From IMG/VR virus record IMGVR_UViG_2579778856_000001: a DNA stretch of 12,065 nucleotides, one strand, 5' to 3'. A program made the position numbers and the translations under genes. The DNA comes from a virus (taxonomy: Duplodnaviria > Heunggongvirae > Uroviricota > Caudoviricetes). The notes under the pieces are model-generated. The model did not search any database, was not told the DNA's origin, and saw only the letters and a program-made list of their open reading frames with translations. This document shows, one piece after another, positions 850 through 12,065 of the stretch (position 1 is its first letter; each line of letters opens with the position of its first letter).

Positions 850-895
850 TGCTGAAAGTTACTTGGTTTAATGTACGTTATTGCGGGTTACGCGC

Positions 896-1825
896 ATGAG
901 CAGGACAGCGTTGCGTCAGGTCGTGCCGGTGGTGCAAACCACCGTGTTCGATGCGTATATTGTCGGTCTGGCCCCCTCGGGACGGCGAGGTATCACCAGC
1001 CTGTTAAACCGCAGCGCCAGCATACTTAAACACGGTGCGGATGCAGCAGACTATCCGTGGGAACAACTTAACTACGCCGCCGTTGCCAAAGTGCGCGCGG
1101 CACTGCTGGATGACGGTTACGCCGTGTCATCGGTCAACATGGCGCTGTCAGCACTCCGGGGCGTAGCGCAGACGGCCTTTAACCTCAATTACATGGATGC
1201 CGAAACGCTGGCACGTATCCGGTCAGTTAAGCGCGTGAGCGGCGATGTCCAGCGCAAGGGAAGGGCGCTGGGCAGGCAGGAAATCCGGGTACTGATTCAG
1301 GCTGCAAAACAGCATCCGCAATCTGTACGGCGCTGTCGCGATGTCGCCATTGTGCTGATGCTTTGCGGAACGGGCCTGCGGGCCGGGGAACTGGTTAAAC
1401 TTGAGCGCCGGGACTATGACAACGGCATCCTGACGGTGAGGCAAGGGAAGGGGCGTAAATACCGTGAAATTCACGTGGCGGATGCGGTGGACAAGGCTAT
1501 TCGTGCGTGGCTGAAAGTTGGCGCAGACGAGGCTGACAGTGCGTTGTTTAGGCGAATTCAGCGCAGTGGTAAGGTCGCAAGCCAACCGCTGACTACGACC
1601 GGGTTAACGGGTATCCTGGCTGAGTTACAGCAAACGGCAGGTATAGCACGTTTTACCCCGCATGATATGCGGCGCACCTTCATCACCCGTTTGCTGGAGC
1701 AGGGCGTGGATATCAATACCGTCCGCCAGTTGGCAGGCCACAGCGACATATCCACGACGACGCGCTATGACTGTCGTGGTGATACTATGAAGATCAGTGC
1801 CAGCAAGCGCATCAGATGTTTTTAG
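896..1825 (+). CDS. Tyrosine-type site-specific recombinase/integrase (XerC/D-like, short form, 309 aa)
   Basis: Complete catalytic signature in order: R in GLRAGEL, K in RQGKGRKYREIHV, H-x-x-R in HDMRRTF, H in AGHSD, Y in TTRYD. ATG 896 preferred over the track's TTG at 881. Stop TAG 1823-1825. Confidence 0.85.
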   Translation: MSRTALRQVVPVVQTTVFDAYIVGLAPSGRRGITSLLNRSASILKHGADAADYPWEQLNYAAVAKVRAALLDDGYAVSSVNMALSALRGVAQTAFNLNYMDAETLARIRSVKRVSGDVQRKGRALGRQEIRVLIQAAKQHPQSVRRCRDVAIVLMLCGTGLRAGELVKLERRDYDNGILTVRQGKGRKYREIHVADAVDKAIRAWLKVGADEADSALFRRIQRSGKVASQPLTTTGLTGILAELQQTAGIARFTPHDMRRTFITRLLEQGVDINTVRQLAGHSDISTTTRYDCRGDTMKISASKRIRCF

Positions 1826-2426
1826 CAGTTGAGGCGTTGCCAGACTCGGTTTCAGTTTCATCTTCAGCACTCAACCGCGCGTACTTTTGATTCTGGATGT
1901 TAATTTGTGCATTGATATTTTCAGGCTGAAGCATCCACGCAACATCCTCACGCGCCCATTCTTTACCGTCAGAGAGTCGTTTTAACCGGGGTTTCCATAT
2001 TCCATACTCATTAAGTTTTTCTGCTACCGAAGCATATTTCTCACGATCTGACTCCCCCGTATGAAGCTTGTCAAAACGACCTTTTACAAGCTGGTAAACA
2101 GTATAGATTTCCAGTGCCTTAGGGGACCTGGCCGGGACTATCATGGGGTGTTCCTCCGGCCTATAAATCCCGTTTGGCTCTCCCTCATTGAGCAGGTCAT
2201 TAAACATGTGGTTCACGCAGGCACTCAGCACATCTGCCGCTTTCTCCGCAGCGAATTTATCCGGGCTAAAACCCGCTCCCGTCAGTTTCCGGGCAATCAG
2301 TGCCAGTTTTTGCCGGGTATCCCGTCCCAGATAAAGCTTCTTCTCCAGAAATTCAAAGACCTCGTTACTGCTTTTCCGTTCCCGGTGGCATCTGGCGTCA
2401 GCCTTGTTGCTTTGGTTACCAATCAT
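1812..2426 (-). CDS. Hypothetical protein (204 aa), unknown function, divergent from alpA
   Basis: Long minus-strand ORF. Second ATG (2426-2424) is preceded by a perfect SD GGAGGTG (plus 2429-2435), so start MIGNQSNK... is preferred over the ATG at 2438. 3' end overlaps the integrase 3' end by 14 bp (convergent). Acidic C-terminal tail. No motif I can assign. Confidence 0.6.
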   Translation of the reverse strand: MIGNQSNKADARCHRERKSSNEVFEFLEKKLYLGRDTRQKLALIARKLTGAGFSPDKFAAEKAADVLSACVNHMFNDLLNEGEPNGIYRPEEHPMIVPARSPKALEIYTVYQLVKGRFDKLHTGESDREKYASVAEKLNEYGIWKPRLKRLSDGKEWAREDVAWMLQPENINAQINIQNQKYARLSAEDETETESGNASTAKNI

Positions 2427-2445
2427 AGTCACCTCCATGACAGTG

Positions 2446-2457: not shown

Positions 2458-2648
2458 TATCACCATTGAGCCTCAGTGAAAATTGCTTCTTTATATGACC
2501 GTTCTGGAGACAGAAATAGATGATCTCGAATGACATCCACATTAAAGATGCCCTTAACGTGCTCAACGAAGGCATCGTTGAGTGAATCCTTGCGTTTTTT
2601 GGTGGTTGTAAATAACCCGCTCCTGAAACAGCTCAAAGGAGCACAAGC

Positions 2649-2846
2649 ATGAACACCAACCGTATTTTGCGTAAAAAAGAGGTACTTCATCTGACGGGGA
2701 ACTCGTCAGCGACGTTGTACCGACTCATCTCGAAAGGATTCTTTCCTTTGTCAAAGAGGCTAACGGGCGACAATGGCCGGGCGGTAGGCTGGCTGGAGAG
2801 TGATATCAATAACTGGGTTAACAGCCGTATGCAGGCGGGAGAATGA
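2649..2846 (+). CDS. alpA: AlpA-family (Vis/excisionase-like) helix-turn-helix transcriptional regulator
   Basis: 65 aa, SD AAGGAG at 2636-2641. RILRKKEVLHLTG-x-S-x-ATLYRLI...FP...G-x-RAVGWLESDINNWV aligns with the recalled E. coli CP4-57 AlpA (RILRLPAVIQKTGMARATIYDWL...FPKKRMLGVKSVGWIEAEIDEWL). Confidence 0.8.
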   Translation: MNTNRILRKKEVLHLTGNSSATLYRLISKGFFPLSKRLTGDNGRAVGWLESDINNWVNSRMQAGE

Positions 2847-2847
2847 A

Positions 2848-3315
2848 ATGAAAGAGATAAAATCGAAAACCAGTTCTGCGAAAAAAACGCTGGTTCCTTG
2901 GTTCGAAACTATGGGGAAACAGGTTGGTTTATCACAAGAAACGATATCAGCAGTGTTAAAGGAGCAGCGTTTACGGATACGTAAGCTTAACTACGCATCT
3001 GCATATACAGTGTCCAATATTCTCATACAGGATTGCGGCGGGGCCGATGACATGTGGAGCAACTACGCTAAACTGGCGCTTATCCTTGAGCGTTGTAAAT
3101 ACATTCCCTGCGGGAGCAGGGCCTGTGCATATTGTTCTACCGCTCAGCAATTACATTATCAGGGGGTGGATGTAACCGGGGAATACGCTTTATATCAGTT
3201 GCCTGAGTTATTTTTAGATTTTTTAGAAACAAACGACAAAAATTCCTCTTATCATTGGGATTACAATAAGTTAGTTGAGCGGCATGAAGATGCTCAGGCG
3301 AGGTCATTCGGGTAA
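2848..3315 (+). CDS. Hypothetical protein (155 aa) with N-terminal HTH-like segment and C-terminal Cys4 cluster (C-x4-C-x4-C-x2-C)
   Basis: ATG 2848 lies 1 nt after the alpA stop (GGGAGAATGAAATG; translational coupling); the track's 2800 start overlaps alpA. Cysteines at residues 83, 88, 93, 96 (CKYIPCGSRACAYC). GC about 40-45 percent, lower than flanks. Confidence 0.6.
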   Translation: MKEIKSKTSSAKKTLVPWFETMGKQVGLSQETISAVLKEQRLRIRKLNYASAYTVSNILIQDCGGADDMWSNYAKLALILERCKYIPCGSRACAYCSTAQQLHYQGVDVTGEYALYQLPELFLDFLETNDKNSSYHWDYNKLVERHEDAQARSFG

Positions 3316-3346
3316 TAGCCATTTCTGTATGGTGAAAAACTGACAT

Positions 3347-3381
3347 ATTACCCTGCCACTGCATTTTGGTGGCAGGGTAAT
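3347..3381. promoter_or_regulatory. Perfect 13-bp inverted repeat (ATTACCCTGCCAC, 9-nt spacer, GTGGCAGGGTAAT); operator or RNA hairpin between the two Cys-cluster genes
   Basis: Seen directly, 32 bp after the upstream stop and 22 bp before the next ATG. No T-tract immediately 3' on the plus strand, so not a canonical intrinsic terminator. Contains the 12-mer CCACTGCATTTT that recurs at 4335-4346. Confidence 0.4.
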
Positions 3382-3402
3382 CAATACAGCTAGGAATATT
3401 AA

Positions 3403-4257
3403 ATGAACGATTCTTATTACTTCAGAACATCTGACCCGGATTACATTCGTCACGCACCGTCAATGCTTGAGATTTTAAGTAAAGCATTCCCCACTATTAT
3501 TACCCAGCAGGAAAGTGAGTATGAACTGCAGCGTCTTAACCATTTACTAAATAAACTGAAAGGCAGCAATCGCTGCTACAACATCATTGCTCAAAAACTA
3601 AGGCAGTGCAGAAACGGATCTCCATGCAACAGTCTTATATGCCCGCATTGCCAGCGGGAACGCATTCTGGCGCAACTGGCTATGTTGCATGTCTTGCCGG
3701 GGAATTCAGCAGAATACGTGGGAGTGGTCCTGTTTTTCAACAAGGATACGCAAACTCCGCCGCCATGGAAGAACATTGGGGCGCTCAGGGCGCAAATCGG
3801 TCGTTATAAGCAGAGGATAAGCCGGGTACTTAACCGCCTGGGGTACGCCGGTCCGGCCACAGGCACCTTCAGTATGATGCGACATATGCCTGATGGCCCA
3901 GAAGAGCGTATTTTCTGGGTTCCACAGTTGTGTTTGTTCCTGCCCAATGACAGTACGTTGATTAAGGGGCTAAAAGCGCATATGTCGCGAAGTGGTGGGG
4001 CATTCATTGATGCATCGACGCTTAACACACCAGTGATCGTGCTCAGGTATAAAGATCCCGCGAGACTGATTTCATGCGCCCTGAATCCAGTCTGGCACAC
4101 AGCAGATTACACACTGACTGATAAAGACGCTCTTGTTAAGTCAAGAATGGAGCTACTGAAAGGCCGGACACTGTTAAAAAGTCTGCTTACCCTGGACTCA
4201 CTCGGAACAGGTGTCGTTTCTTTTTCGTTTGGGCAACCCCCAGGGAAAGTGCACTGA
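3403..4257 (+). CDS. Hypothetical protein (284 aa) with zinc-ribbon-like Cys4 cluster (C-x5-C-x4-C-x2-C)
   Basis: ATG 3403 with AGGA 7 nt upstream. Cys cluster CRNGSPCNSLICPHC at residues 69-83 (nt 3607-3651). No family assignable by eye. Confidence 0.65.
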   Translation: MNDSYYFRTSDPDYIRHAPSMLEILSKAFPTIITQQESEYELQRLNHLLNKLKGSNRCYNIIAQKLRQCRNGSPCNSLICPHCQRERILAQLAMLHVLPGNSAEYVGVVLFFNKDTQTPPPWKNIGALRAQIGRYKQRISRVLNRLGYAGPATGTFSMMRHMPDGPEERIFWVPQLCLFLPNDSTLIKGLKAHMSRSGGAFIDASTLNTPVIVLRYKDPARLISCALNPVWHTADYTLTDKDALVKSRMELLKGRTLLKSLLTLDSLGTGVVSFSFGQPPGKVH

Positions 4258-4269
4258 TTTACCGGTAAT

Positions 4270-4370
4270 GCAGCAACTGCAATGCACTTTTGCTGTTGAT
4301 TAAATTGCAGTGGAACGACGAATAACAGCGGCAACCACTGCATTTTCGTTGTTGTAAAACTGCAAAGCTT
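4270..4370. repeat. Iteron-like repeat cluster: four copies of ACTGCA(A/T) (one inverted), an 8-bp perfect inverted repeat, and ATGCACTTT twice
   Basis: ACTGCAA at 4276-4282, inverted copy at 4305-4311, ACTGCAT at 4337-4343, ACTGCAA at 4359-4365. IR TGCAGTGG 4306-4313 / CCACTGCA 4335-4342. ATGCACTTT at 4282-4290 and again at 4393-4401. Confidence 0.4.
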
Positions 4371-4519
4371 GCCAGTGATTTTGATGGCGCTGATGCACTT
4401 TAACATTCCAACTGTCTCGATTTTAACGCAACCGTCTGTTTTCTGCAGGGGCTCACGGATGCCTCTGCACACCCGATCCTTACCATCAACTGACGAGTTA
4501 GCGCATCTGTGAGGGCTTT

Positions 4520-4833
4520 CTGTGTTTCTGTCAGTGAATATTCTACACACAATGGGGGGAGCGGTCAGCGAGCACCATTGCCATTGAGCGCAACGGAGAG
4601 CTTGGGGACATGCAGCACTACGGAGGCTTCATCTCCTTCTCATGTCATTAAACGATACGGCGAACGAGCGCAGCGAGTGAGGGAAGGCGTCAGCCTGAAC
4701 AGGGGGAAAGATTTGCGACCGGAGTGGAGCAAATCATGGGCGGAGCCCATCCTCGCGACTGGGGTTTTGACTTTCGAATTGCCCAGCGTTGAGTTTGGTT
4801 AATGTAGTGAGACGAGGATGCTGAGAGGGGACC
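4520..4833 (+). other. Purine/G-rich non-coding segment; candidate structured 5' leader or small RNA upstream of the polymerase-like gene
   Basis: No ATG-initiated ORF of plausible codon usage. The only track ORF here (4509-4802) starts with GTG and is rich in rare codons (AGG, CGA, GGG). Runs such as GGGGGGAGCGG, GAGGGAAGGCG, ACAGGGGGAAAG. Tight hairpin ATGGGC-GGA-GCCCAT at 4736-4750. Confidence 0.25.
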
Positions 4834-6231
4834 GTGAGTACTGAAAAGGATTATCCAGTGAAGATCCCTAAGTGGGTTTATGACCGTATTACTGAAATAA
4901 CGGATTATGTCGTGGGGGATACGCAATGGGCTGTTACCCGGCGGCAGACAGTACGGTGGTTCCTGGCTCACATATGGCTGGAAACAGACGATGATGGCTG
5001 GACTATATGCACTGTCCGGGATATCCGTAGCAGCTATGCCAGTCTCCTGGGACAGTGTGAAATTAGTTACCAGGGGGAGTGCTTTATGTCCACGCTAACT
5101 GATTTCCTGCCGACACTTTCGGATATTGAATTTCGTGCAGGAAAAGCGAGCAAAGACCCGGAAAAGCGTAGAGCCAGTGCATGGCGGTTCAACCCCCTGC
5201 TGCCTGTGTGTGATGAGTCTGCCAGGGGTAAGTTAAATCTGGTTGACTTGGATACTGGTGAGTCTGTTAGTTTTAGAGCTCTGCTTCAGGGGAACGGGAA
5301 AGCTCCTGGGCATGCGATAGATGTAGAGAAACGCCAGACGGCCCTAAAACAAACGGAAAAGGACTTCTTGGCCAAAGTTGGGCGGGGGCGCATGAGTATA
5401 CAGTTTGTGAAGGAATTGCGTAGCCGTGAGCCGGATCACTATTACCGCGCAGGAATACGCAGCCTTAACCATCTCTACAATGGCAGGATTGAGGGACAAT
5501 ATGTCACTTACGACCATCATTATCGTCTGACGTTTGGAGGGCGGTATTATGATCAAGCTTTCCAGAATCTGCCCAATGAGTTCAAAGCTAAATTTCGGAC
5601 CGGGTTACTCAACTATGACATCGAAGCGTGCAATCTGGCCTGTCTGAACCATCTGTTCAGACAGTATGACGTCGATTATCGTGTGAAGTCATCGATATAT
5701 AAAACCATGATGGAACATACCGGGCTGACCCGTAAACAGTGCAAACAGATGGTCCATACCACCACCTACAGAATTGGGCGTGTGACTATTGGTGTTAATG
5801 ATGGCCTTGGGGCAAAAGTGTATGGATGGTGCGGTAACAGCAAAAAAAAGGCGCTAAAGATTTTGCGTTGGTGGAACCGTTATATCAGTCCATTGAAATC
5901 TGCGCTTGAGTCATTGCTGGAACGTGTGCATGGCGCACACCGCAAGAGTTGTTCATCACCGCGTAACTATCACAGGTACGCTAATGAAGTCGGATTAATA
6001 CTGGATCTTAATAGTGAGGTGTATCAGCGTGAAAAGACTCACCATCATCAATATGCGCGGAATAAGGCACTGTTGGCGTTTATGATCTGTGGTGTGGAGC
6101 AGGCGTATATCCGTGAGGTTGTCAGTATGAACCCTGGTCGTGTCTGCATGCTGGATCATGATGGGGTAGTGGCAACGGGCGCGCTTTCACTACCGGACTG
6201 GCGTGGTTTCACGATGAAAGTGAAGGACTAG
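4834..6231 (+). CDS. Uncharacterised protein (465 aa) with family-A / T7-like single-subunit polymerase motifs A, B (O-helix) and C; putative minimal right-hand polymerase
   Basis: GTG start at 4834 with SD GAGAGGGGA immediately upstream and in-frame stop at 4822-4824. Motif A-like NYDIEACNLACLNHL (res 260-274; compare Pol I DYSQIELRIMAHL). O-helix-like RKQCKQMVHTTTY (R300, K304, H308, Y312; compare Pol I R754-K758-F762-Y766). Motif C-like CMLDHDGVV (res 438-446; compare Pol I MQVHDELV). A-to-B and B-to-C spacing (about 42 and 137 aa) resembles Klenow and T7 DNA polymerase. Motif-level inference only. Confidence 0.65.
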   Translation: MSTEKDYPVKIPKWVYDRITEITDYVVGDTQWAVTRRQTVRWFLAHIWLETDDDGWTICTVRDIRSSYASLLGQCEISYQGECFMSTLTDFLPTLSDIEFRAGKASKDPEKRRASAWRFNPLLPVCDESARGKLNLVDLDTGESVSFRALLQGNGKAPGHAIDVEKRQTALKQTEKDFLAKVGRGRMSIQFVKELRSREPDHYYRAGIRSLNHLYNGRIEGQYVTYDHHYRLTFGGRYYDQAFQNLPNEFKAKFRTGLLNYDIEACNLACLNHLFRQYDVDYRVKSSIYKTMMEHTGLTRKQCKQMVHTTTYRIGRVTIGVNDGLGAKVYGWCGNSKKKALKILRWWNRYISPLKSALESLLERVHGAHRKSCSSPRNYHRYANEVGLILDLNSEVYQREKTHHHQYARNKALLAFMICGVEQAYIREVVSMNPGRVCMLDHDGVVATGALSLPDWRGFTMKVKD

Positions 6232-6297
6232 CTTACTTTCTTGAATTTAACTATCTGCGATCTCTGATAAGGGCGTATTACGTTGTCAATCATAATG

Positions 6298-6328
6298 GGA
6301 TATGCGCATTGGAACGATGTGCATATCC
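6298..6328. repeat. 11-bp inverted repeat / hairpin (GGATATGCGCA, 9-nt spacer, TGTGCATATCC; one G-T position)
   Basis: Seen directly, 67 bp after the polymerase-like gene stop and 27 bp before the IS30-type terminal repeat. No downstream T-tract. Confidence 0.3.
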
Positions 6329-6355: not shown

Positions 6356-7090
6356 TGTGAGTTCAACGGGTCGATGCAACGCTGTCCCTAATCAAGGGGG
6401 ACGTTGCCATGAAACGAAGAACTCGTATTAACTACACGCCAGAGCAAAAGGTGATTATTTGGGACAGATATAAGCAAGGTGATTCCCTGCATGATATCCC
6501 CCAGAATGTTCGACAGATTTCACTCTACTATCATGCCTACAATCCACCAGGCCGGTGGCTACCGTCCTCCCGTGCGAAAGCGGCACCGGTTAGCGTTTTC
6601 GCTTGATGAAAAAGAGGAGATATCCAGAGGACTGGTAGCAAAACGCATCATCAGGGACATCGCTGCTAAATTATCAATAGCTCCCTCAACGATTAGCCGC
6701 GAGATCAGGAGGCACGGCGGTGCAAAACAATACCGTGCAGCAAAAGCCGATCCTGCTGCGTGGGAAAATGCTCTGAGACCAAAACCTTGCAAGCTAATTG
6801 AAAGCCCCACATTGTGTAAAATCATTGCAGAGAAGATGCATCAGGACTGGTCGCCGGAACAAATTGGCGGTTGGCTAAAACGCTGTTATCCCGATAATCA
6901 GGAAATGCATGTGTCACATGAAATGATTTATAAAACGCTTTTTATACCAACCCGGGGAGCTTTAAAAAAAGAGCTGCAGCAATGCCTCAGAAGCGGAAGA
7001 GTAGTGCGTAGATCCAAAACCTCATCACTTAAAGTAAACAGAGATACATTCTGGTCACGAATGCCCGGTTGTTCGTGCTTTGCGTTTTAA
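6356..7090 (+). mobile_element. IS30-family insertion sequence remnant (left inverted repeat plus 5' part of the transposase gene; 3' half deleted)
   Basis: Left end TGTGAGTTCAACGGGTCGATGCAAC at 6356-6380 resembles the recalled IS30 IRL (TGTAGATTCAATTGGTCAACGCAAC). Transposase ORF begins 53 bp inside. Element ends abruptly; no right repeat before the membrane protein gene. Confidence 0.7.
6409..7090 (+). pseudogene. IS30-family transposase, frameshifted near 6498-6502 and truncated (N-terminal HTH region only, DDE domain missing)
   Basis: Track ORFs 6409-6606 and 6479-7090 are consecutive pieces of one IS30-like transposase in two frames. MKRRTRINYTPEQKVIIWDRYKQGDSLHDI then, in the other frame, FDRFHSTIMP...RKRHRLAFSLDEKEEISRGL...APSTISREIRRHGG...KPCKL...WSPEQIGGWL...EMIYKTLF. 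Frame switch coincides with a C5 run. Product about 200 aa versus about 380 for intact IS30 transposase. Confidence 0.75.
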
Positions 7091-9798: not shown

Positions 9799-9991
9799 TC
9801 AGACATGAGATAAATGAAGGGGGATCCGTGAGATAAATAACGAATTGGAGTGGGTTAACATGGGTTCTGGTGAACAGAACTGAAATTCTTTTCCGCTATA
9901 CGATAGATAAGTCGGGCATTGAAATCATCCTTCCTGGCAACTTAGAATCGAGTTTGCTGAAACATGACCCGCAACAAAAAGGATGATTCCA

Positions 9992-10153
9992 ATGACTACT
10001 CAAAACAATAAGCATGATAGCCTGGATTACTCAGAAAAGCCCAAAAGCAAGCACATCGTGACGTTCGAGCGCGATTCCGGTAGAAAAGGAGAATCGTCTT
10101 CCTCTGCCAATAAAACCACTATGCCGGCAGCCCCTGCCCCAGGGAAAAAATAA
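9992..10153 (+). CDS. Possible small hydrophilic protein (53 aa), K/S-rich; not in the ORF track because under 60 aa
   Basis: ATG 9992 with AAGGA 9 nt upstream. MTTQNNKHDSLDYSEKPKSKHIVTFERDSGRKGESSSSANKTTMPAAPAPGKK, stop TAA 10151-10153. Alternative in-frame ATG at 9983. Confidence 0.3.
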   Translation: MTTQNNKHDSLDYSEKPKSKHIVTFERDSGRKGESSSSANKTTMPAAPAPGKK

Positions 10154-10156
10154 ACA

Positions 10157-10789
10157 TCATTCATCGTTCGTTGCACGAACGCGCCTGATCTCCACTCTGG
10201 CAATCTGATCTGCTGGAATATAGGTTGCCAGAGCTCCCCAGTACTTATCAACCACGCCTTTATACTCTTCCCATTCGTTACTGCCTGAAGGGCTGCTGTG
10301 CGTGACGTAAAGAACCATATCGCCTTTATTCCCCAGGGTAAACGGACCGTTAGGCCACTCTTCAAAGTTCCCTGGCAGCCGTGACATCATACCGGAACCA
10401 TCGCGAAGAATCACTCTGACCTCGGTAACGCTGAAGCCTGTTTGATCAAACATTGCCTGCCATGCTGAGCTGGTATCGTCAGACCATGAAATATCATTAT
10501 TCCACAGTAATCTGTACATCCATTTGCGACCGTACCTGCGCCACCACGCACCGCATGTAAGGGCACACAGAAGTGCTGGTGGTGTTGCCAGCCAGGCATT
10601 CAGACCTGCCCACATAACAGCCTGGTAAGCCATCATTGCTGTCAGGCCAAAAATCAGCGAAGAAAAAGTCACCTCAATGGGCTTGTGGTGATCCTTCAGT
10701 CCCACATTCGCAATAAAATACCCAATATAGCCACTGGTCAGGGTCACCAGTGTTGCCCATGGCAGATTTAACAACGAAACGTCAAACAT
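10157..10789 (-). CDS. Membrane protein (210 aa): three predicted N-terminal TM helices plus a soluble C-terminal domain; unknown function
   Basis: Start at the ATG for MFDVSLLNLPW... (plus 10787-10789) preceded by SD GGGAG. The track's longer start is a TTG lying inside the upstream terminator hairpin. Sits directly downstream of the mor terminator. Confidence 0.65.
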   Translation of the reverse strand: MFDVSLLNLPWATLVTLTSGYIGYFIANVGLKDHHKPIEVTFSSLIFGLTAMMAYQAVMWAGLNAWLATPPALLCALTCGAWWRRYGRKWMYRLLWNNDISWSDDTSSAWQAMFDQTGFSVTEVRVILRDGSGMMSRLPGNFEEWPNGPFTLGNKGDMVLYVTHSSPSGSNEWEEYKGVVDKYWGALATYIPADQIARVEIRRVRATNDE

Positions 10790-10827
10790 ATTTTCTCCCT
10801 GCATCCTGAATACTAAAGAGAGAGCAT

Positions 10828-10861
10828 AAAAAAAGCACGGTAAGGGGTCTACCGTGCTTTT
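10828..10861 (-). terminator. Rho-independent terminator (bidirectional hairpin) downstream of mor
   Basis: 9-bp stem AGCACGGTA / TACCGTGCT (10834-10842 and 10850-10858) with 7-nt loop, flanked by an A7 run at 10828-10834 (a U7 tract on the minus-strand transcript) and TTTT at 10858-10861 on the plus strand. Confidence 0.6.
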
Positions 10862-10903
10862 ATACAATAAGGAGATTTTTGAAAGGACTTTAACAAGCAG
10901 GAA

Positions 10904-11302
10904 TTATCTGGATTTGTTAACGTCTTTCGTCTCCTCTGGCAGATCTTCATCAAACAACCTGCCCTGCATCCGATCCAGTTCTTCTTTTCTGACCCGCTTA
11001 ACCACGCTGTAGACCCACTGAAGCGAAACACCAAACTTGCGGGCCAGTTCGTGGTGGTTGCGTCCGTTAAACTCCCTGAAGATTTCCCGGTCGCGCTGAC
11101 TGACCTTCCATACCATGCCCATCGGGAAATAAACGTTTTGCCCGCCCCAGACCTGCATCATTCGGTTCGCGACGGCCTGACCAATCTGGTCGGCAACTTC
11201 GGGCTCAATATCAATAATCTCGCGAACGGTCTCAGAGGTATGCTGTGCCAGTTCCACCAGGAGTTCCGGCCCCTTACTTCGAAACTGATTCAGGTCGCTC
11301 AT
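10904..11302 (-). CDS. mor: Mor-family transcriptional activator (phage Mu middle operon regulator-like)
   Basis: 132 aa. WGGQNVYFPMG...RDREIFREFNGRNHHELARKFGVSLQWVYSVVKRVR aligns with the recalled Mu Mor core (GGGQVYIPRG...RD...FNGRN...EL...YGV...VY...R). Confidence 0.75.
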   Translation of the reverse strand: MSDLNQFRSKGPELLVELAQHTSETVREIIDIEPEVADQIGQAVANRMMQVWGGQNVYFPMGMVWKVSQRDREIFREFNGRNHHELARKFGVSLQWVYSVVKRVRKEELDRMQGRLFDEDLPEETKDVNKSR

Positions 11303-11726
11303 GTTTGACTCCCGCAGCTCTGCGCTGCCACTTCTTCAGTTTCTCAATAACACTGCTTGCCTGTTCAGTACTGAGCCAGCGCAGGGCGCTGATGCCCGTT
11401 TCCCGCTTGATCCACCGCGCTAATGCATTTTCTGAACGGTCACGAACAATGCCGGCAGCAGCCATTTCAAGCCATAGCGCACGGATTTTCCTGGACTGCG
11501 GATGGTTATCCAGCGGTAAACCGGAGCTGGCTTTTCCGGCAGGCTTAACGCGAAAGCCTTTCCTTTTCATGGATTCCAGCACGCAGTTTAGTTGTGTGGT
11601 ATCCATTCCTTTGGTTGAGGCTTTACCGGTCAGCCCCTGTAACATCTGGCGGTAGGTGTCTTCATCCATACCCAGTTCATTACGGGCAATATGAATGAGC
11701 TGGATAAGACGTTGTTTAGTCATCAT
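11274..11726 (-). CDS. Mu gp16/GemA-like protein (DUF1018-type), upstream partner of mor
   Basis: RLIQLIHIARNELGMDEDTYRQMLQGLTGKAS...SRKIRALW pattern as in Mu-like prophage gp16/GemA proteins. 3' end overlaps the mor start by 29 bp. Start chosen at the ATGATG pair preceded by AAAGGAG rather than the track's 11765. My reading here was off by one base relative to the track; track frame used. Confidence 0.6.
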   Translation of the reverse strand: MMTKQRLIQLIHIARNELGMDEDTYRQMLQGLTGKASTKGMDTTQLNCVLESMKRKGFRVKPAGKASSGLPLDNHPQSRKIRALWLEMAAAGIVRDRSENALARWIKRETGISALRWLSTEQASSVIEKLKKWQRRAAGVKHERPESVSK

Positions 11727-11931
11727 CGTTGCTCCTTTTACCTGCGCCACCGATATAATCGACATATAAAGGAAGCGCCACAGGCCAGCACAGGAACATC
11801 ACCGACCAGCTAATCCAGTAGCCAGCACCACTGTAACGTGAATAAAACCCTGAACGGCGGTGCAGTTCAGCAGTACACCAACCGACAAAACAATACCAGA
11901 ACAGGGCACATACAACAGATTCAGCCGTCAT
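11716..11931 (-). CDS. Possible small membrane protein (about 71 aa, two TM helices) overlapping the gemA-like start
   Basis: Track ORF 11716-12045 starts with TTG; first ATG gives MTAESVVCALFWYCFVGWCTAELHRRSGFYSRYSGAGYWISWSVMFLCWPVALPLYVDYIGGAGKRSNDDD. Stop overlaps the gemA-like start (coupling). Weak SD. Confidence 0.3.
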   Translation of the reverse strand: MTAESVVCALFWYCFVGWCTAELHRRSGFYSRYSGAGYWISWSVMFLCWPVALPLYVDYIGGAGKRSNDDD

Positions 11932-12065
11932 TCTGAATATCCCCCCAACTGATATGAATATTACGGGCAGCAATGACAGGGTCGTTATTCCACCATGCAC
12001 CTGACATGTATTTTTCAACCTGTTCGCGTCCGGCAATAACACCAATTGTGATCCCCGGCCTGACG

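What the first reader, a model, noticed from the sequence alone, without database searches (positions are those of the whole stretch)
3094..3651. Adjacent genes carry similarly spaced Cys4 clusters (C-x4-C-x4-C-x2-C and C-x5-C-x4-C-x2-C)
CKYIPCGSRACAYC in the 155-aa protein and CRNGSPCNSLICPHC in the 284-aa protein have near-identical spacing, suggesting a shared zinc-ribbon-type module, possibly a duplicated domain. Zinc ribbons are common in primases, replication initiators and nucleic-acid-binding defence proteins, consistent with a nucleic-acid-directed function for the module.
Basis: seen in the sequence. Interest (0 to 1): 0.5.

Follow-up and report, generated by a model that had tools for sequence, protein, structure and literature searches.

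The report
Dead rolling-circle initiators sharing Cys4 motif
The two matching four-cysteine clusters are real and homologous: they are the metal-binding-type motif of plasmid rolling-circle replication initiators. Here it survives in a full-length but catalytically dead copy and in a truncated copy, both in the core of an E. coli genomic island beside a previously unrecognised DNA-polymerase-I-like gene.

Summary
Protein A (155 aa, 2848-3315) has CKYIPCGSRACAYC at nt 3094-3135. Protein B (284 aa, 3403-4257) has CRNGSPCNSLICPHC at nt 3607-3651. Such clusters are rare in composition-preserving shuffles, and all four Cys are conserved in both families.

The clusters are homologous. Profile-profile comparison of A against B gives 97.6% probability, E 3.7e-12, and E 2e-5 with the Cys block deleted. 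In related islands a full-length B paralog sits where A sits.

Distant B relatives carry the three rolling-circle Rep motifs (vTLiFY, W-x-P-H-x-H-L-L, S-Y-x-F-K). They align to pC194/pUB110 Rep (Pfam Rep_1) starting at the Cys motif (95.5%, E 1.4e-8). B has lost the HUH histidines (Q-L-C) and the catalytic Tyr (Cys225). So B is an inactivated Rep and A is its truncated N-terminal paralog.

The predicted fold around the cluster is helix-loop-helix, not a zinc ribbon. Metal binding was not tested.

The genes follow int and alpA in a conserved island core. Downstream lie a conserved, apparently structured non-coding element and a 465-aa protein with family-A DNA polymerase motifs. I infer DNA recognition in island replication or mobilisation, not nicking.

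The parts
881..1825 (+). Tyrosine integrase of the conserved island core
   Evidence: Pfam Phage_integrase, E 1.4e-31. The same gene order (RadC, int, reverse gene, alpA, Rep-like) recurs in L004, L005, L018 and L019.
1812..2438 (-). 208-aa protein of unknown function, divergent from alpA and a conserved partner of the module
   Evidence: No significant family hit. A reverse-strand gene of 153-204 aa holds this position in L002, L003, L005, L018 and L019.
2649..2846 (+). alpA (AlpA-family regulator). Its stop codon lies 1 nt before the start of A.
   Evidence: Pfam Phage_AlpA, E 2.6e-12. In related islands alpA abuts or overlaps the start of the Rep-like gene.
2848..3315 (+). Protein A (155 aa): a truncated paralog holding only the N-terminal helical + Cys4 part of the Rep-like family
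   Evidence: hhalign A5 vs A4: 97.6%, E 3.7e-12, A 32-145 aligned to B 34-131. B-family HMM hits A at 3.2e-8. A short ORF of 148-155 aa is conserved in Salmonella, Cedecea and metagenomes.
3094..3135 (+). Cys4 cluster of A (C83, C88, C93, C96; CKYIPCGSRACAYC)
   Evidence: The PCGSxACxxC core matches the B-family consensus PCxSxACPxC.
3403..4257 (+). Protein B (284 aa): full-length Rep_1-like HUH-fold protein with an N-terminal Cys4 motif and no catalytic residues
3607..3651 (+). Cys4 cluster of B (C69, C75, C80, C83; CRNGSPCNSLICPHC)
   Evidence: It aligns to SCKNRFCPVC of pC194 Rep. In the model it is a loop between helices 57-68 and 81-95, pLDDT about 90.
3913..3945 (+). Degenerate HUH strand of B (F-W-V-P-Q-L-C-L-F-L-P) where relatives have W-x-P-H-x-H-L-L-x-P
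   Evidence: Motif tables.
4063..4098 (+). Degenerate motif 3 of B (R-L-I-S-C-A-L-N) where relatives have Q-I-S-Y-L-F-K (catalytic Tyr, Lys)
   Evidence: Motif tables.
4543..4750 (+). Conserved non-coding element between B and C: three near-invariant blocks with hairpins. Candidate origin, protein-binding site or ncRNA.
   Evidence: Alignments A7 and A8. nhmmer E 1e-41 to 1e-53 in 7 genera. 44 pairs, 96% paired; 8 pairs with compensatory changes against 0-3 in slid controls. No Rfam family. Single copy per genome.
4834..6231 (+). Protein C (465 aa): the C-terminal half resembles the palm and fingers of family-A DNA polymerases
   Evidence: hhalign against a 7-sequence PolA profile: E 6.9e-5 and 1.2e-4, score 43-44, against 11-21 for 20 column-shuffled controls. 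D262~D705, R300/K304/Y312~R754/K758/Y766, H442-D443~H881-D882, FQNLP~LQNIP. No Pfam, PDB or PADLOC hit.

Best explanation
A and B are tandem paralogs from a family of rolling-circle-replication (HUH) initiator-like proteins distantly related to the pC194/pUB110 Rep family (Pfam Rep_1). The four-cysteine cluster is that family's N-terminal motif (..C..PC-x-S-x-A-C-P-x-C-[FW]-R..). It lies immediately before the first strand of the HUH fold and most likely binds a structural metal, probably Zn.

In related islands a single catalytically intact copy (HUH + YxxK) follows alpA. There it presumably nicks the excised island to start rolling-circle replication or transfer.

In the Enterobacterales lineage that includes this window, three things happened:
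- The gene was duplicated.
- All copies lost the HUH histidines and the catalytic Tyr/Lys.
- In Escherichia, Salmonella and Cedecea the alpA-proximal copy was truncated to the N-terminal helical + Cys4 domain. That copy is A.

B therefore cannot nick by the canonical mechanism. I infer that B, with A as a partner or modulator through the shared N-terminal domain, acts as a sequence- or structure-specific DNA (or RNA) binding factor. Its most likely target is the conserved hairpin-bearing element at 4543-4750, in the replication or maintenance module of the island. That module also encodes the family-A-polymerase-like protein C.

Shown here: homology, duplication, loss of catalytic residues, synteny, and conservation of the non-coding element.
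Inferred: metal binding, DNA binding, and the functional link to the element and to C.
For: 1. The Cys clusters are present, beyond chance and conserved.
2. A and B are homologous beyond the cysteines. hhalign gives 97.6%, E 3.7e-12. With the Cys block deleted it gives E 2e-5, and E 4.7e-6 for the N-terminal part alone. HMM hits are reciprocal.
3. Positional evidence. L004, L005, L024, L025 and L026 carry two full-length paralogs where the window has A + B, and Budvicia has three. Salmonella and Cedecea share the A + B + C form.
4. Rep ancestry.
   - 17 of 31 family representatives carry vTLiFY, W-x-P-H-x-H-L-L and S-Y-x-F-K.
   - Some give sub-threshold Pfam hits to Rep_1 (7 members) and REP_ORF2-G2P (2 members).
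   - hhalign of the active clade against pC194 + pUB110 Rep gives 95.5%, E 1.4e-8, running from the Cys motif to HUH.
5. Catalytic loss. B has Q175-L-C177 and C225/N228 at robustly aligned positions. Every paralog next to a close homolog of C lacks them.
6. Core-module context. The order int, reverse gene, alpA, Rep-like is conserved, while the downstream cargo varies (RM, GmrSD, SMC-like, RT). In L003 an intact Rep sits with a DUF927 protein and a C-like protein.
7. RCR-initiator relatives are already known as putative relaxases or replication proteins of integrative elements (PMC5704250; PMC3218068).
Against: - No direct test of metal binding, DNA binding or nuclease inactivity was possible.
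- The AF2 model of A is unusable (pLDDT 44.8), so A's fold and the clustering of its cysteines are unverified.
- The inactive clade alone does not reach significance against Rep_1 (E 5e-3). The link depends on the active clade as a bridge.
- The link between A/B, the non-coding element and C rests on adjacency and co-conservation only.
- The element was not found next to distant C-like genes.
- A diverges far faster than B (49% against 89% identity between E. coli and Salmonella). That could mean relaxed constraint.
Confidence: 0.6

Rival explanations
1. The cluster binds an iron-sulfur cluster (for example [4Fe-4S]) rather than zinc, as contiguous 4-Cys loops do in some DNA-processing enzymes (recalled, not checked: endonuclease III and MutY). 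It would then serve in DNA sensing or redox control rather than as a purely structural site.
For: Four invariant Cys lie within 15 residues, in a loop next to a DNA-enzyme fold. Sequence alone cannot tell Zn from Fe-S. This is my own inference.
Against: The spacing (x5, x4, x2, with CPxC at a helix N-terminus) is not that of known Fe-S loops, as far as I recall them. One relative (P0137) has His at the fourth position, which is more typical of Zn sites, although a close homolog has Tyr there.
Confidence: 0.15
2. A, B, the non-coding element and C together form an anti-phage or anti-plasmid defence system (ncRNA + polymerase + sensor/effector, by analogy with retrons and DRT systems) and not a replication module.
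For: - The island carries many defence genes: retron Ec67, ABC-three-component system, type I RM, GmrSD, RT.
- A conserved structured non-coding element directly upstream of a polymerase gene recalls retron and DRT layouts.
- A evolves fast.
- C is interrupted by ISEc52 in most ST131 genomes, so it is dispensable.
Against: - No PADLOC model hits A, B, C or their relatives.
- The genes sit in the conserved int-alpA core and not among the variable cargo.
- Intact-HUH relatives occupy the same slot, in two loci next to a DUF927 protein.
- C resembles DNA-dependent family-A polymerases, not reverse transcriptases.
Confidence: 0.2
3. A is a decaying remnant of a truncated Rep gene with no function of its own, and the matching Cys cluster is just inherited sequence.
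For: - A aligns only to the N-terminal part of the family.
- Its C-terminal 50 residues are poorly conserved.
- It diverges much faster than B.
- AF2 finds no confident fold.
Against: - An intact ORF of 148-155 aa is kept in Escherichia, Salmonella, Cedecea and metagenomes at 48-55% identity.
- It keeps an invariant N-terminus, the Cys block and the LVERH motif.
- Third-codon positions differ more than first and second positions (0.49-0.65 against 0.28-0.40).
- The start stays abutted to the alpA stop.
- An A-like gene also occurs after alpA in L021, where no B gene follows it.
Confidence: 0.12
4. B is still a nuclease or relaxase and uses substitute catalytic residues (for example H161, C177, C225).
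For: H161 is nearly invariant across the family, and C177 and C225 are invariant among close homologs.
Against: C177 and C225 are not conserved in the wider inactive clade, which has Y, R or L and R, L or A at those positions. No alternative Tyr is conserved in the motif-3 helix.
Confidence: 0.05

Closest known systems
Rep_1 family rolling-circle initiators (pC194 RepA, pUB110 RepU; Pfam PF01446)
   Same: The element order is the same: an N-terminal Cys motif ending C-x4-C-P-x-C-[WF]-R, then motif 1 (FLTLT-like), then HUH (PHFHVL against PHFHLL). hhalign of the intact clade gives 95.5%, E 1.4e-8 over 120 columns. Pfam gives weak Rep_1 hits.
   Different: - Pfam scores stay below the gathering cut-off (21.7 against 33.2 bits).
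- The first Cys is 5 residues before the second. In pC194 and pUB110 Rep no Cys lies that close, and the nearest upstream Cys is about 20 residues away (read from the sequences).
- The genes are chromosomal-island genes after alpA, not small Gram-positive plasmid genes.
- B and all paralogs next to close homologs of C lack HUH and the catalytic Tyr.
- A is only the N-terminal part.
Microviridae replication initiator proteins (VP4 / gpA-type HUH Reps)
   Same: They give the best structural matches to the B model in the viral library: top hit E 1.2e-5, with alignments of 199-301 columns. They are HUH rolling-circle initiators.
   Different: TM-scores are only 0.3-0.5 and identity 10-15%. B lacks the catalytic motifs.
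Non-canonical relaxases / RCR initiators of integrative mobilizable elements (MobT/Rep_trans, Rep_2, PHA00330) and RepSA of actinomycete integrative elements
   Same: They are RCR-initiator-type proteins encoded in integrated elements beside integrases. They are proposed to serve replication of the excised form, transfer, or both (PMC5704250; PMC3218068).
   Different: They are different Rep families, mostly in Firmicutes and Actinobacteria, and are catalytically intact. The window's copies are catalytically dead and duplicated.
Catalytically inactive HUH-fold origin-binding domains (papillomavirus E1 OBD, SV40 large-T OBD; cited from my own knowledge, not tested here)
   Same: The concept is the same: a Rep-fold domain without nuclease residues that keeps sequence-specific origin binding. 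The weak Foldseek matches to the LANA DNA-binding domain point the same way.
   Different: No sequence relationship was shown. Those domains are fused to SF3 helicases. DNA binding by B is untested.
Zinc ribbon
   Same: Four Cys in a short span next to a nucleic-acid enzyme fold.
   Different: There is only one CxxC. The AF2 model predicts helix-loop-helix with no beta-hairpin knuckles.

Membership tests
HUH endonuclease / RCR Rep superfamily (active enzyme) | Motif 2: His-hydrophobic-His metal site on a central beta-strand | tested here: not met
   B has Q175-L-C177 where 17 of 31 relatives have H-x-H. A lacks this region entirely.
HUH endonuclease / RCR Rep superfamily (active enzyme) | Motif 3: catalytic Tyr (YxxK) on the following helix | tested here: not met
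   B has S-C225-A-L-N where relatives have S-Y-L-F-K.
HUH endonuclease / RCR Rep superfamily (homology / fold) | Ferredoxin-like alpha/beta core homologous to Rep proteins | tested here: met
Pfam Rep_1 (PF01446) | Score at or above the gathering threshold (33.2 bits) | tested here: not met
   B has no hit. The best relative scores 21.7 bits, E 1.6e-4.
Pfam Rep_1 (PF01446) | N-terminal C-x4-C-P-x-C-[WF]-R motif followed by FLTLT and HUH, in that order | tested here: met
   This holds for the family as a whole. The hhalign alignment runs from the Cys motif to HUH in the same order. In B only the Cys motif and a degenerate motif 1 remain.
Zinc ribbon | Two CxxC-type knuckles on beta-hairpins | tested here: not met
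   There is one CxxC (C80-P-H-C83). DSSP of the confident model shows helix 57-68, loop 69-80, helix 81-95.
Zinc-binding Cys4 site (generic) | Four ligands close in space, with bound metal | not testable with these tools
The support is indirect: invariance, and joint loss of three Cys in P0128.
Family-A DNA polymerase (for neighbour C) | Motifs A (Asp), B (R-x3-K-x7-Y) and C (H-D) in order, plus the QNIP motif | tested here: inconclusive
   hhalign E 6.9e-5 and 1.2e-4, probability 54-63%, with all motifs in register and well above shuffled controls.
Known anti-phage defence systems (PADLOC-DB 2.0) | HMM match to a catalogued defence protein | tested here: not met
   No hit for A, B, C, the 208-aa protein or their relatives.

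The most novel reading that the evidence does not exclude
The conserved block alpA / dead Zn-HUH paralogs (A, B) / structured non-coding element / minimal family-A-polymerase-like protein C is an undescribed self-replication (or nucleic-acid-synthesising) module of enterobacterial genomic islands. In it, inactivated rolling-circle initiators have become recognition factors that load a dedicated PolA-like polymerase onto a conserved hairpin origin or template. That would be a family-A counterpart of the PolB-based self-synthesising elements.
Probability: 0.25. Interest if true: 0.8.

Novelty: new variant of a known kind. Interest (0 to 1): 0.55.

Why it matters
Three 'hypothetical proteins' present in about 11% of the complete E. 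coli genomes searched (596 of 5,426), including ST131, now have an ancestry. A and B derive from rolling-circle initiators and C derives from a family-A polymerase.

Catalytically dead HUH proteins kept as tandem paralogs raise a question: what does a Rep fold do once it can no longer nick? If the module replicates or mobilises the island, it bears on how defence-laden islands spread among Enterobacterales.

The conserved non-coding element and the PolA-like protein give direct experimental handles.

Tried and rejected
- **Family libraries.** Pfam, PHROGs, NCBIfam and PADLOC scans of A, B and C gave no significant hits.
- **PDB sequence searches.** Profile searches with the B and C families found nothing.
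- **BLASTP of A against B.** It finds only the Cys block, E 0.036. Pairwise search alone would have left the homology open.
- **AF2 of A.** With 9 sequences it gave pLDDT 44.8, unusable, so no fold search was run on it.
- **AFDB50 fold search.** The library was unavailable.
- **PDB Foldseek for B.** Nothing below E 1e-2.
- **The search for related loci with the B-family alignment.** The C family was used instead.
- **hhalign of C against a single E. coli PolA sequence.** Nothing found. The match appeared only with a 7-sequence PolA profile.
- **Folding the non-coding element.** Single-sequence RNA folds on either strand were no more stable than shuffles.
- **Rfam.** No family matched.
- **Promoter and terminator scans.** Uninformative, about as many sites as in shuffles.
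- **Literature.** Searches on HUH + AlpA, DUF2787 + RadC, and family-A polymerase + island found nothing on this module.
- **Rejected ideas.** Chance or convergent Cys spacing; a classical zinc ribbon; a primase zinc-binding domain (no Toprim or primase signature anywhere in A or B).
Full report
**Where the window comes from.** The window is part of an E. coli chromosomal island. Bases 2600-6300 match 596 of 5,426 complete E. coli genomes. Most hits are at >=99% identity, and they include many ST131 strains.

The gene order read from the ORF list and family scans is:
- RadC, 379-849
- tyrosine integrase, 881-1825
- a 208-aa reverse-strand gene, 1812-2438
- alpA, 2649-2846
- protein A, 155 aa, 2848-3315
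- protein B, 284 aa, 3403-4257
- a 576-nt gap
- protein C, 465 aa, 4834-6231
- an IS30-type transposase remnant
- a DUF2339 membrane protein
- Mu-like genes (Mor, GemA)

RefSeq annotates A, B and C as hypothetical proteins.

**The observation.** In shuffles that keep each protein's composition, any four-Cys cluster with gaps of 2-6 occurs in about 0.4% of cases. The exact spacing occurs in fewer than 1 in 10,000. The four Cys are invariant in clean A-family members down to 49% identity. They are invariant or >=90% conserved in 31 B-family representatives down to about 19% identity.

**Are the two clusters related?**
- BLASTP of A against B sees only the Cys block, E 0.036.
- Profile-profile comparison of the two families gives 97.6% probability, E 3.7e-12, aligning A 32-145 with B 34-131.
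- With the Cys blocks deleted from both alignments the match persists at E 2e-5. The N-terminal helices alone give E 4.7e-6. The part after the cluster gives nothing on its own.
- Plain HMM searches are reciprocal. The B-family HMM hits A proteins at 3e-8 to 7e-11, and the A HMM hits several full-length B-family proteins.
- A's core, PCGSRACAYC, fits the B-family consensus PCxSxACPxC better than B's own sequence does.

**Synteny settles the direction of change.** In metagenomic contigs L004 and L005, and in Edaphovirga, Yersinia similis and Serratia, two full-length B-family paralogs (about 283 and 285 aa) stand in tandem between alpA and the C homolog. Budvicia has three. Salmonella and Cedecea share the window's form, with a short A (148 aa), then B, then C. 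A starts 1 nt after the alpA stop. That is the slot the single Rep-like gene occupies in other islands, where it abuts or overlaps alpA. So A is a truncated paralog, most simply of the alpA-proximal copy, although the sequence data do not resolve which copy.

**What the family is.** An exhaustive HMMER search with B found 37 cluster representatives. In their alignment, 17 of 31 full-length members carry the three classical rolling-circle initiator motifs in order: vTLiFY (motif 1), W-x-P-H-x-H-L-L (HUH, motif 2) and S-Y-x-F-K (catalytic Tyr, motif 3). The motif definitions follow PMC3218068.

Further evidence for this ancestry:
- Seven members give sub-threshold Pfam hits to Rep_1, and two to REP_ORF2-G2P.
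- A profile of the intact clade aligns to the pC194 and pUB110 Rep proteins at 95.5% probability, E 1.4e-8, over 120 columns.
- That alignment begins at the Cys motif (PC-x-S-x-AC-P-x-C against SCKNRFCPVC / FCKSRLCPMC). It then runs through motif 1 to PHFHLL / PHFHVL.
- The AF2 model of B is confident (pLDDT 88, pTM 0.88).
- Its best matches in the viral structure library reach E 1.2e-5. Every named match near the top is a Microvirus replication initiator.

The Cys cluster is therefore the ancestral N-terminal motif of a Rep_1-like initiator family.

**The fold around the cluster.** In the model the cluster is a 15-residue loop between helix 57-68 and helix 81-95, just before the first strand of the catalytic fold. 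Only one CxxC is present, and it lies at a helix N-terminus. This is not zinc-ribbon architecture. I could not retrieve coordinates, so spatial clustering of the four Cys was not measured. Metal identity is open, and Zn against Fe-S cannot be decided from sequence.

**B is catalytically dead.** At positions flanked by unambiguous anchors (W..P....L.P.D and IS......W), B reads F-W-V-P-Q-L-C-L-F-L-P and R-L-I-S-C-A-L-N. Intact relatives read W-L-P-H-F-H-L-L-I-P and Q-I-S-Y-L-F-K. Every paralog found next to a close C homolog lacks the two His, and none has Lys at the position of the Lys in S-Y-x-F-K; most also lack the Tyr, though a few retain it, e.g. L025_up and L027_p2. The substitutes (C177, C225) are not conserved across the inactive clade, so a shifted active site is unlikely. 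Full-length ORFs are kept across genera at 40-55% identity, so these are not pseudogenes.

**Context and likely role.** The order int, small reverse gene, alpA, Rep-like gene is a conserved core. What follows varies: type I RM, SMC-like ATPases, GmrSD, a reverse transcriptase, a retron, and an ABC-three-component system elsewhere in the island.
- In L018 the same core carries one intact HUH protein.
- In L003 an intact one is followed by a DUF927 protein and a distant C homolog.
- Relatives of rolling-circle initiators are already proposed to act as relaxases or replication initiators of integrative elements (PMC5704250; PMC3218068).

For intact family members I therefore infer nicking of the excised island. 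For B, I infer retention of DNA recognition without nicking. A would act as a partner or modulator through the shared N-terminal domain. These steps are inference, not demonstration.

**Two neighbours make the module more interesting.**

Protein C has no hit in Pfam, PDB or PADLOC. Its C-terminal half aligns to a seven-sequence family-A polymerase profile at E 6.9e-5 and 1.2e-4 (score 43-44). Twenty column-shuffled controls scored 11-21. All signature motifs are in register:
- FGGRYYD..FQNLP against TGRLSS..NLQNIP
- D262 against D705
- R300/K304/Y312 against R754/K758/Y766
- H442-D443 against H881-D882

Distant homologs, including a 534-aa protein of Erwinia jumbo phages, keep NYD, K-x3-[YF]-x3-[YF]-x2-G and HDG.

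The B-C gap holds three blocks (within 4543-4750) that are almost invariant in seven genera, although B is only about 40% and C about 60% identical between them. A consensus fold gives 44 pairs at 96% pairing. Eight pairs show compensatory changes, against 0-3 in slid controls, and the G-U pairs favour the + strand. The sample amounts to about three lineages, and single-sequence folding is no better than shuffles, so structure is only suggested. The element has no Rfam match and is single-copy per genome. It is the obvious candidate target for A and B, and a candidate origin or template for C.

**Rivals.**
- A defence-system reading (ncRNA + polymerase + sensor) is not excluded. It is disfavoured by the core position and the absence of PADLOC hits.
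- A may be a decaying remnant. It diverges much faster than B (49% against 89% identity between E. coli and Salmonella). However, its ORF, N-terminus and Cys block are kept, and third-codon positions vary most.
- Fe-S instead of Zn remains possible.

**Verdict.** 'Zinc ribbon' is the wrong fold label. They sit in an island core next to an unrecognised PolA-like gene and a conserved non-coding element. I class this as a new variant of a known kind.

Noticed in passing
window 4834-6231 (+): The 465-aa 'hypothetical' protein C carries family-A DNA polymerase motifs in order (QNLP, motif A Asp262, motif B R300/K304/Y312, motif C H442-D443). hhalign against a PolA profile gives E about 1e-4, well above shuffled controls. 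Homologs occur across Enterobacterales islands and in Erwinia jumbo phages.
   Followed up: partly
window 4543-4750 (+): A non-coding element between B and C is nearly invariant across seven genera and far better conserved than the flanking proteins. It has hairpins supported by a few compensatory changes. It has no Rfam family and is single-copy per genome.
   Followed up: partly
window 4241-4370 (+): Just after the B stop codon there is a cluster of short direct and inverted repeats around ACTGCA / TGCAGT (for example 4275-4285, 4302-4313, 4335-4346, 4358-4368). They are conserved in Salmonella and could be protein-binding sites.
   Followed up: no
window 2848-3315 compared with L019 10001-10447: A is only 49% identical between E. 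coli and Salmonella, while B in the same two islands is 89% identical. This means rapid divergence or replacement of A alone.
   Followed up: partly
L001 14226-16883 (ST131 strain MB1341), equivalent to window about 4834-6231: In all 20 best-matching genomes listed, several of them labelled ST131, the PolA-like gene C is interrupted by an ISEc52 (IS3-family) insertion. It is intact in this window.
   Followed up: no
L027 3241-6466 and 9185-10663 (Budvicia aquatica): Three tandem inactive Rep-like paralogs and two C-like genes sit in one island, so the duplication was repeated.
   Followed up: no
L003 2239-8337: A marine or environmental island carries alpA, an intact Zn-HUH Rep, a DUF927 protein and a distant C-like protein together. 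This is the most complete candidate replication set seen.
   Followed up: partly
window 1812-2438 (-): The 208-aa reverse-strand gene overlaps the integrase 3' end by 14 nt. A counterpart holds this position in every related island examined. Its only signal is a sub-threshold Pfam 'Recombinase' match, also seen in the L003 counterpart.
   Followed up: no
window 9799-12065: Downstream of DUF2339 the window carries Mu-like genes (phrog_12870, Mor, GemA) on the minus strand. The ST131 locus has DUF3999 there instead. DUF2339 is 870 aa here, against a 2,658-nt annotated CDS (about 885 aa) in ST131, which suggests a Mu-like insertion at its 3' end.
   Followed up: no
window 6409-7090 (+): Two overlapping ORFs form a frameshifted, truncated transposase remnant. 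I read it as IS30-type from the sequence alone, without a family scan; the ST131 record annotates it only as a partial, frameshifted transposase.
   Followed up: no
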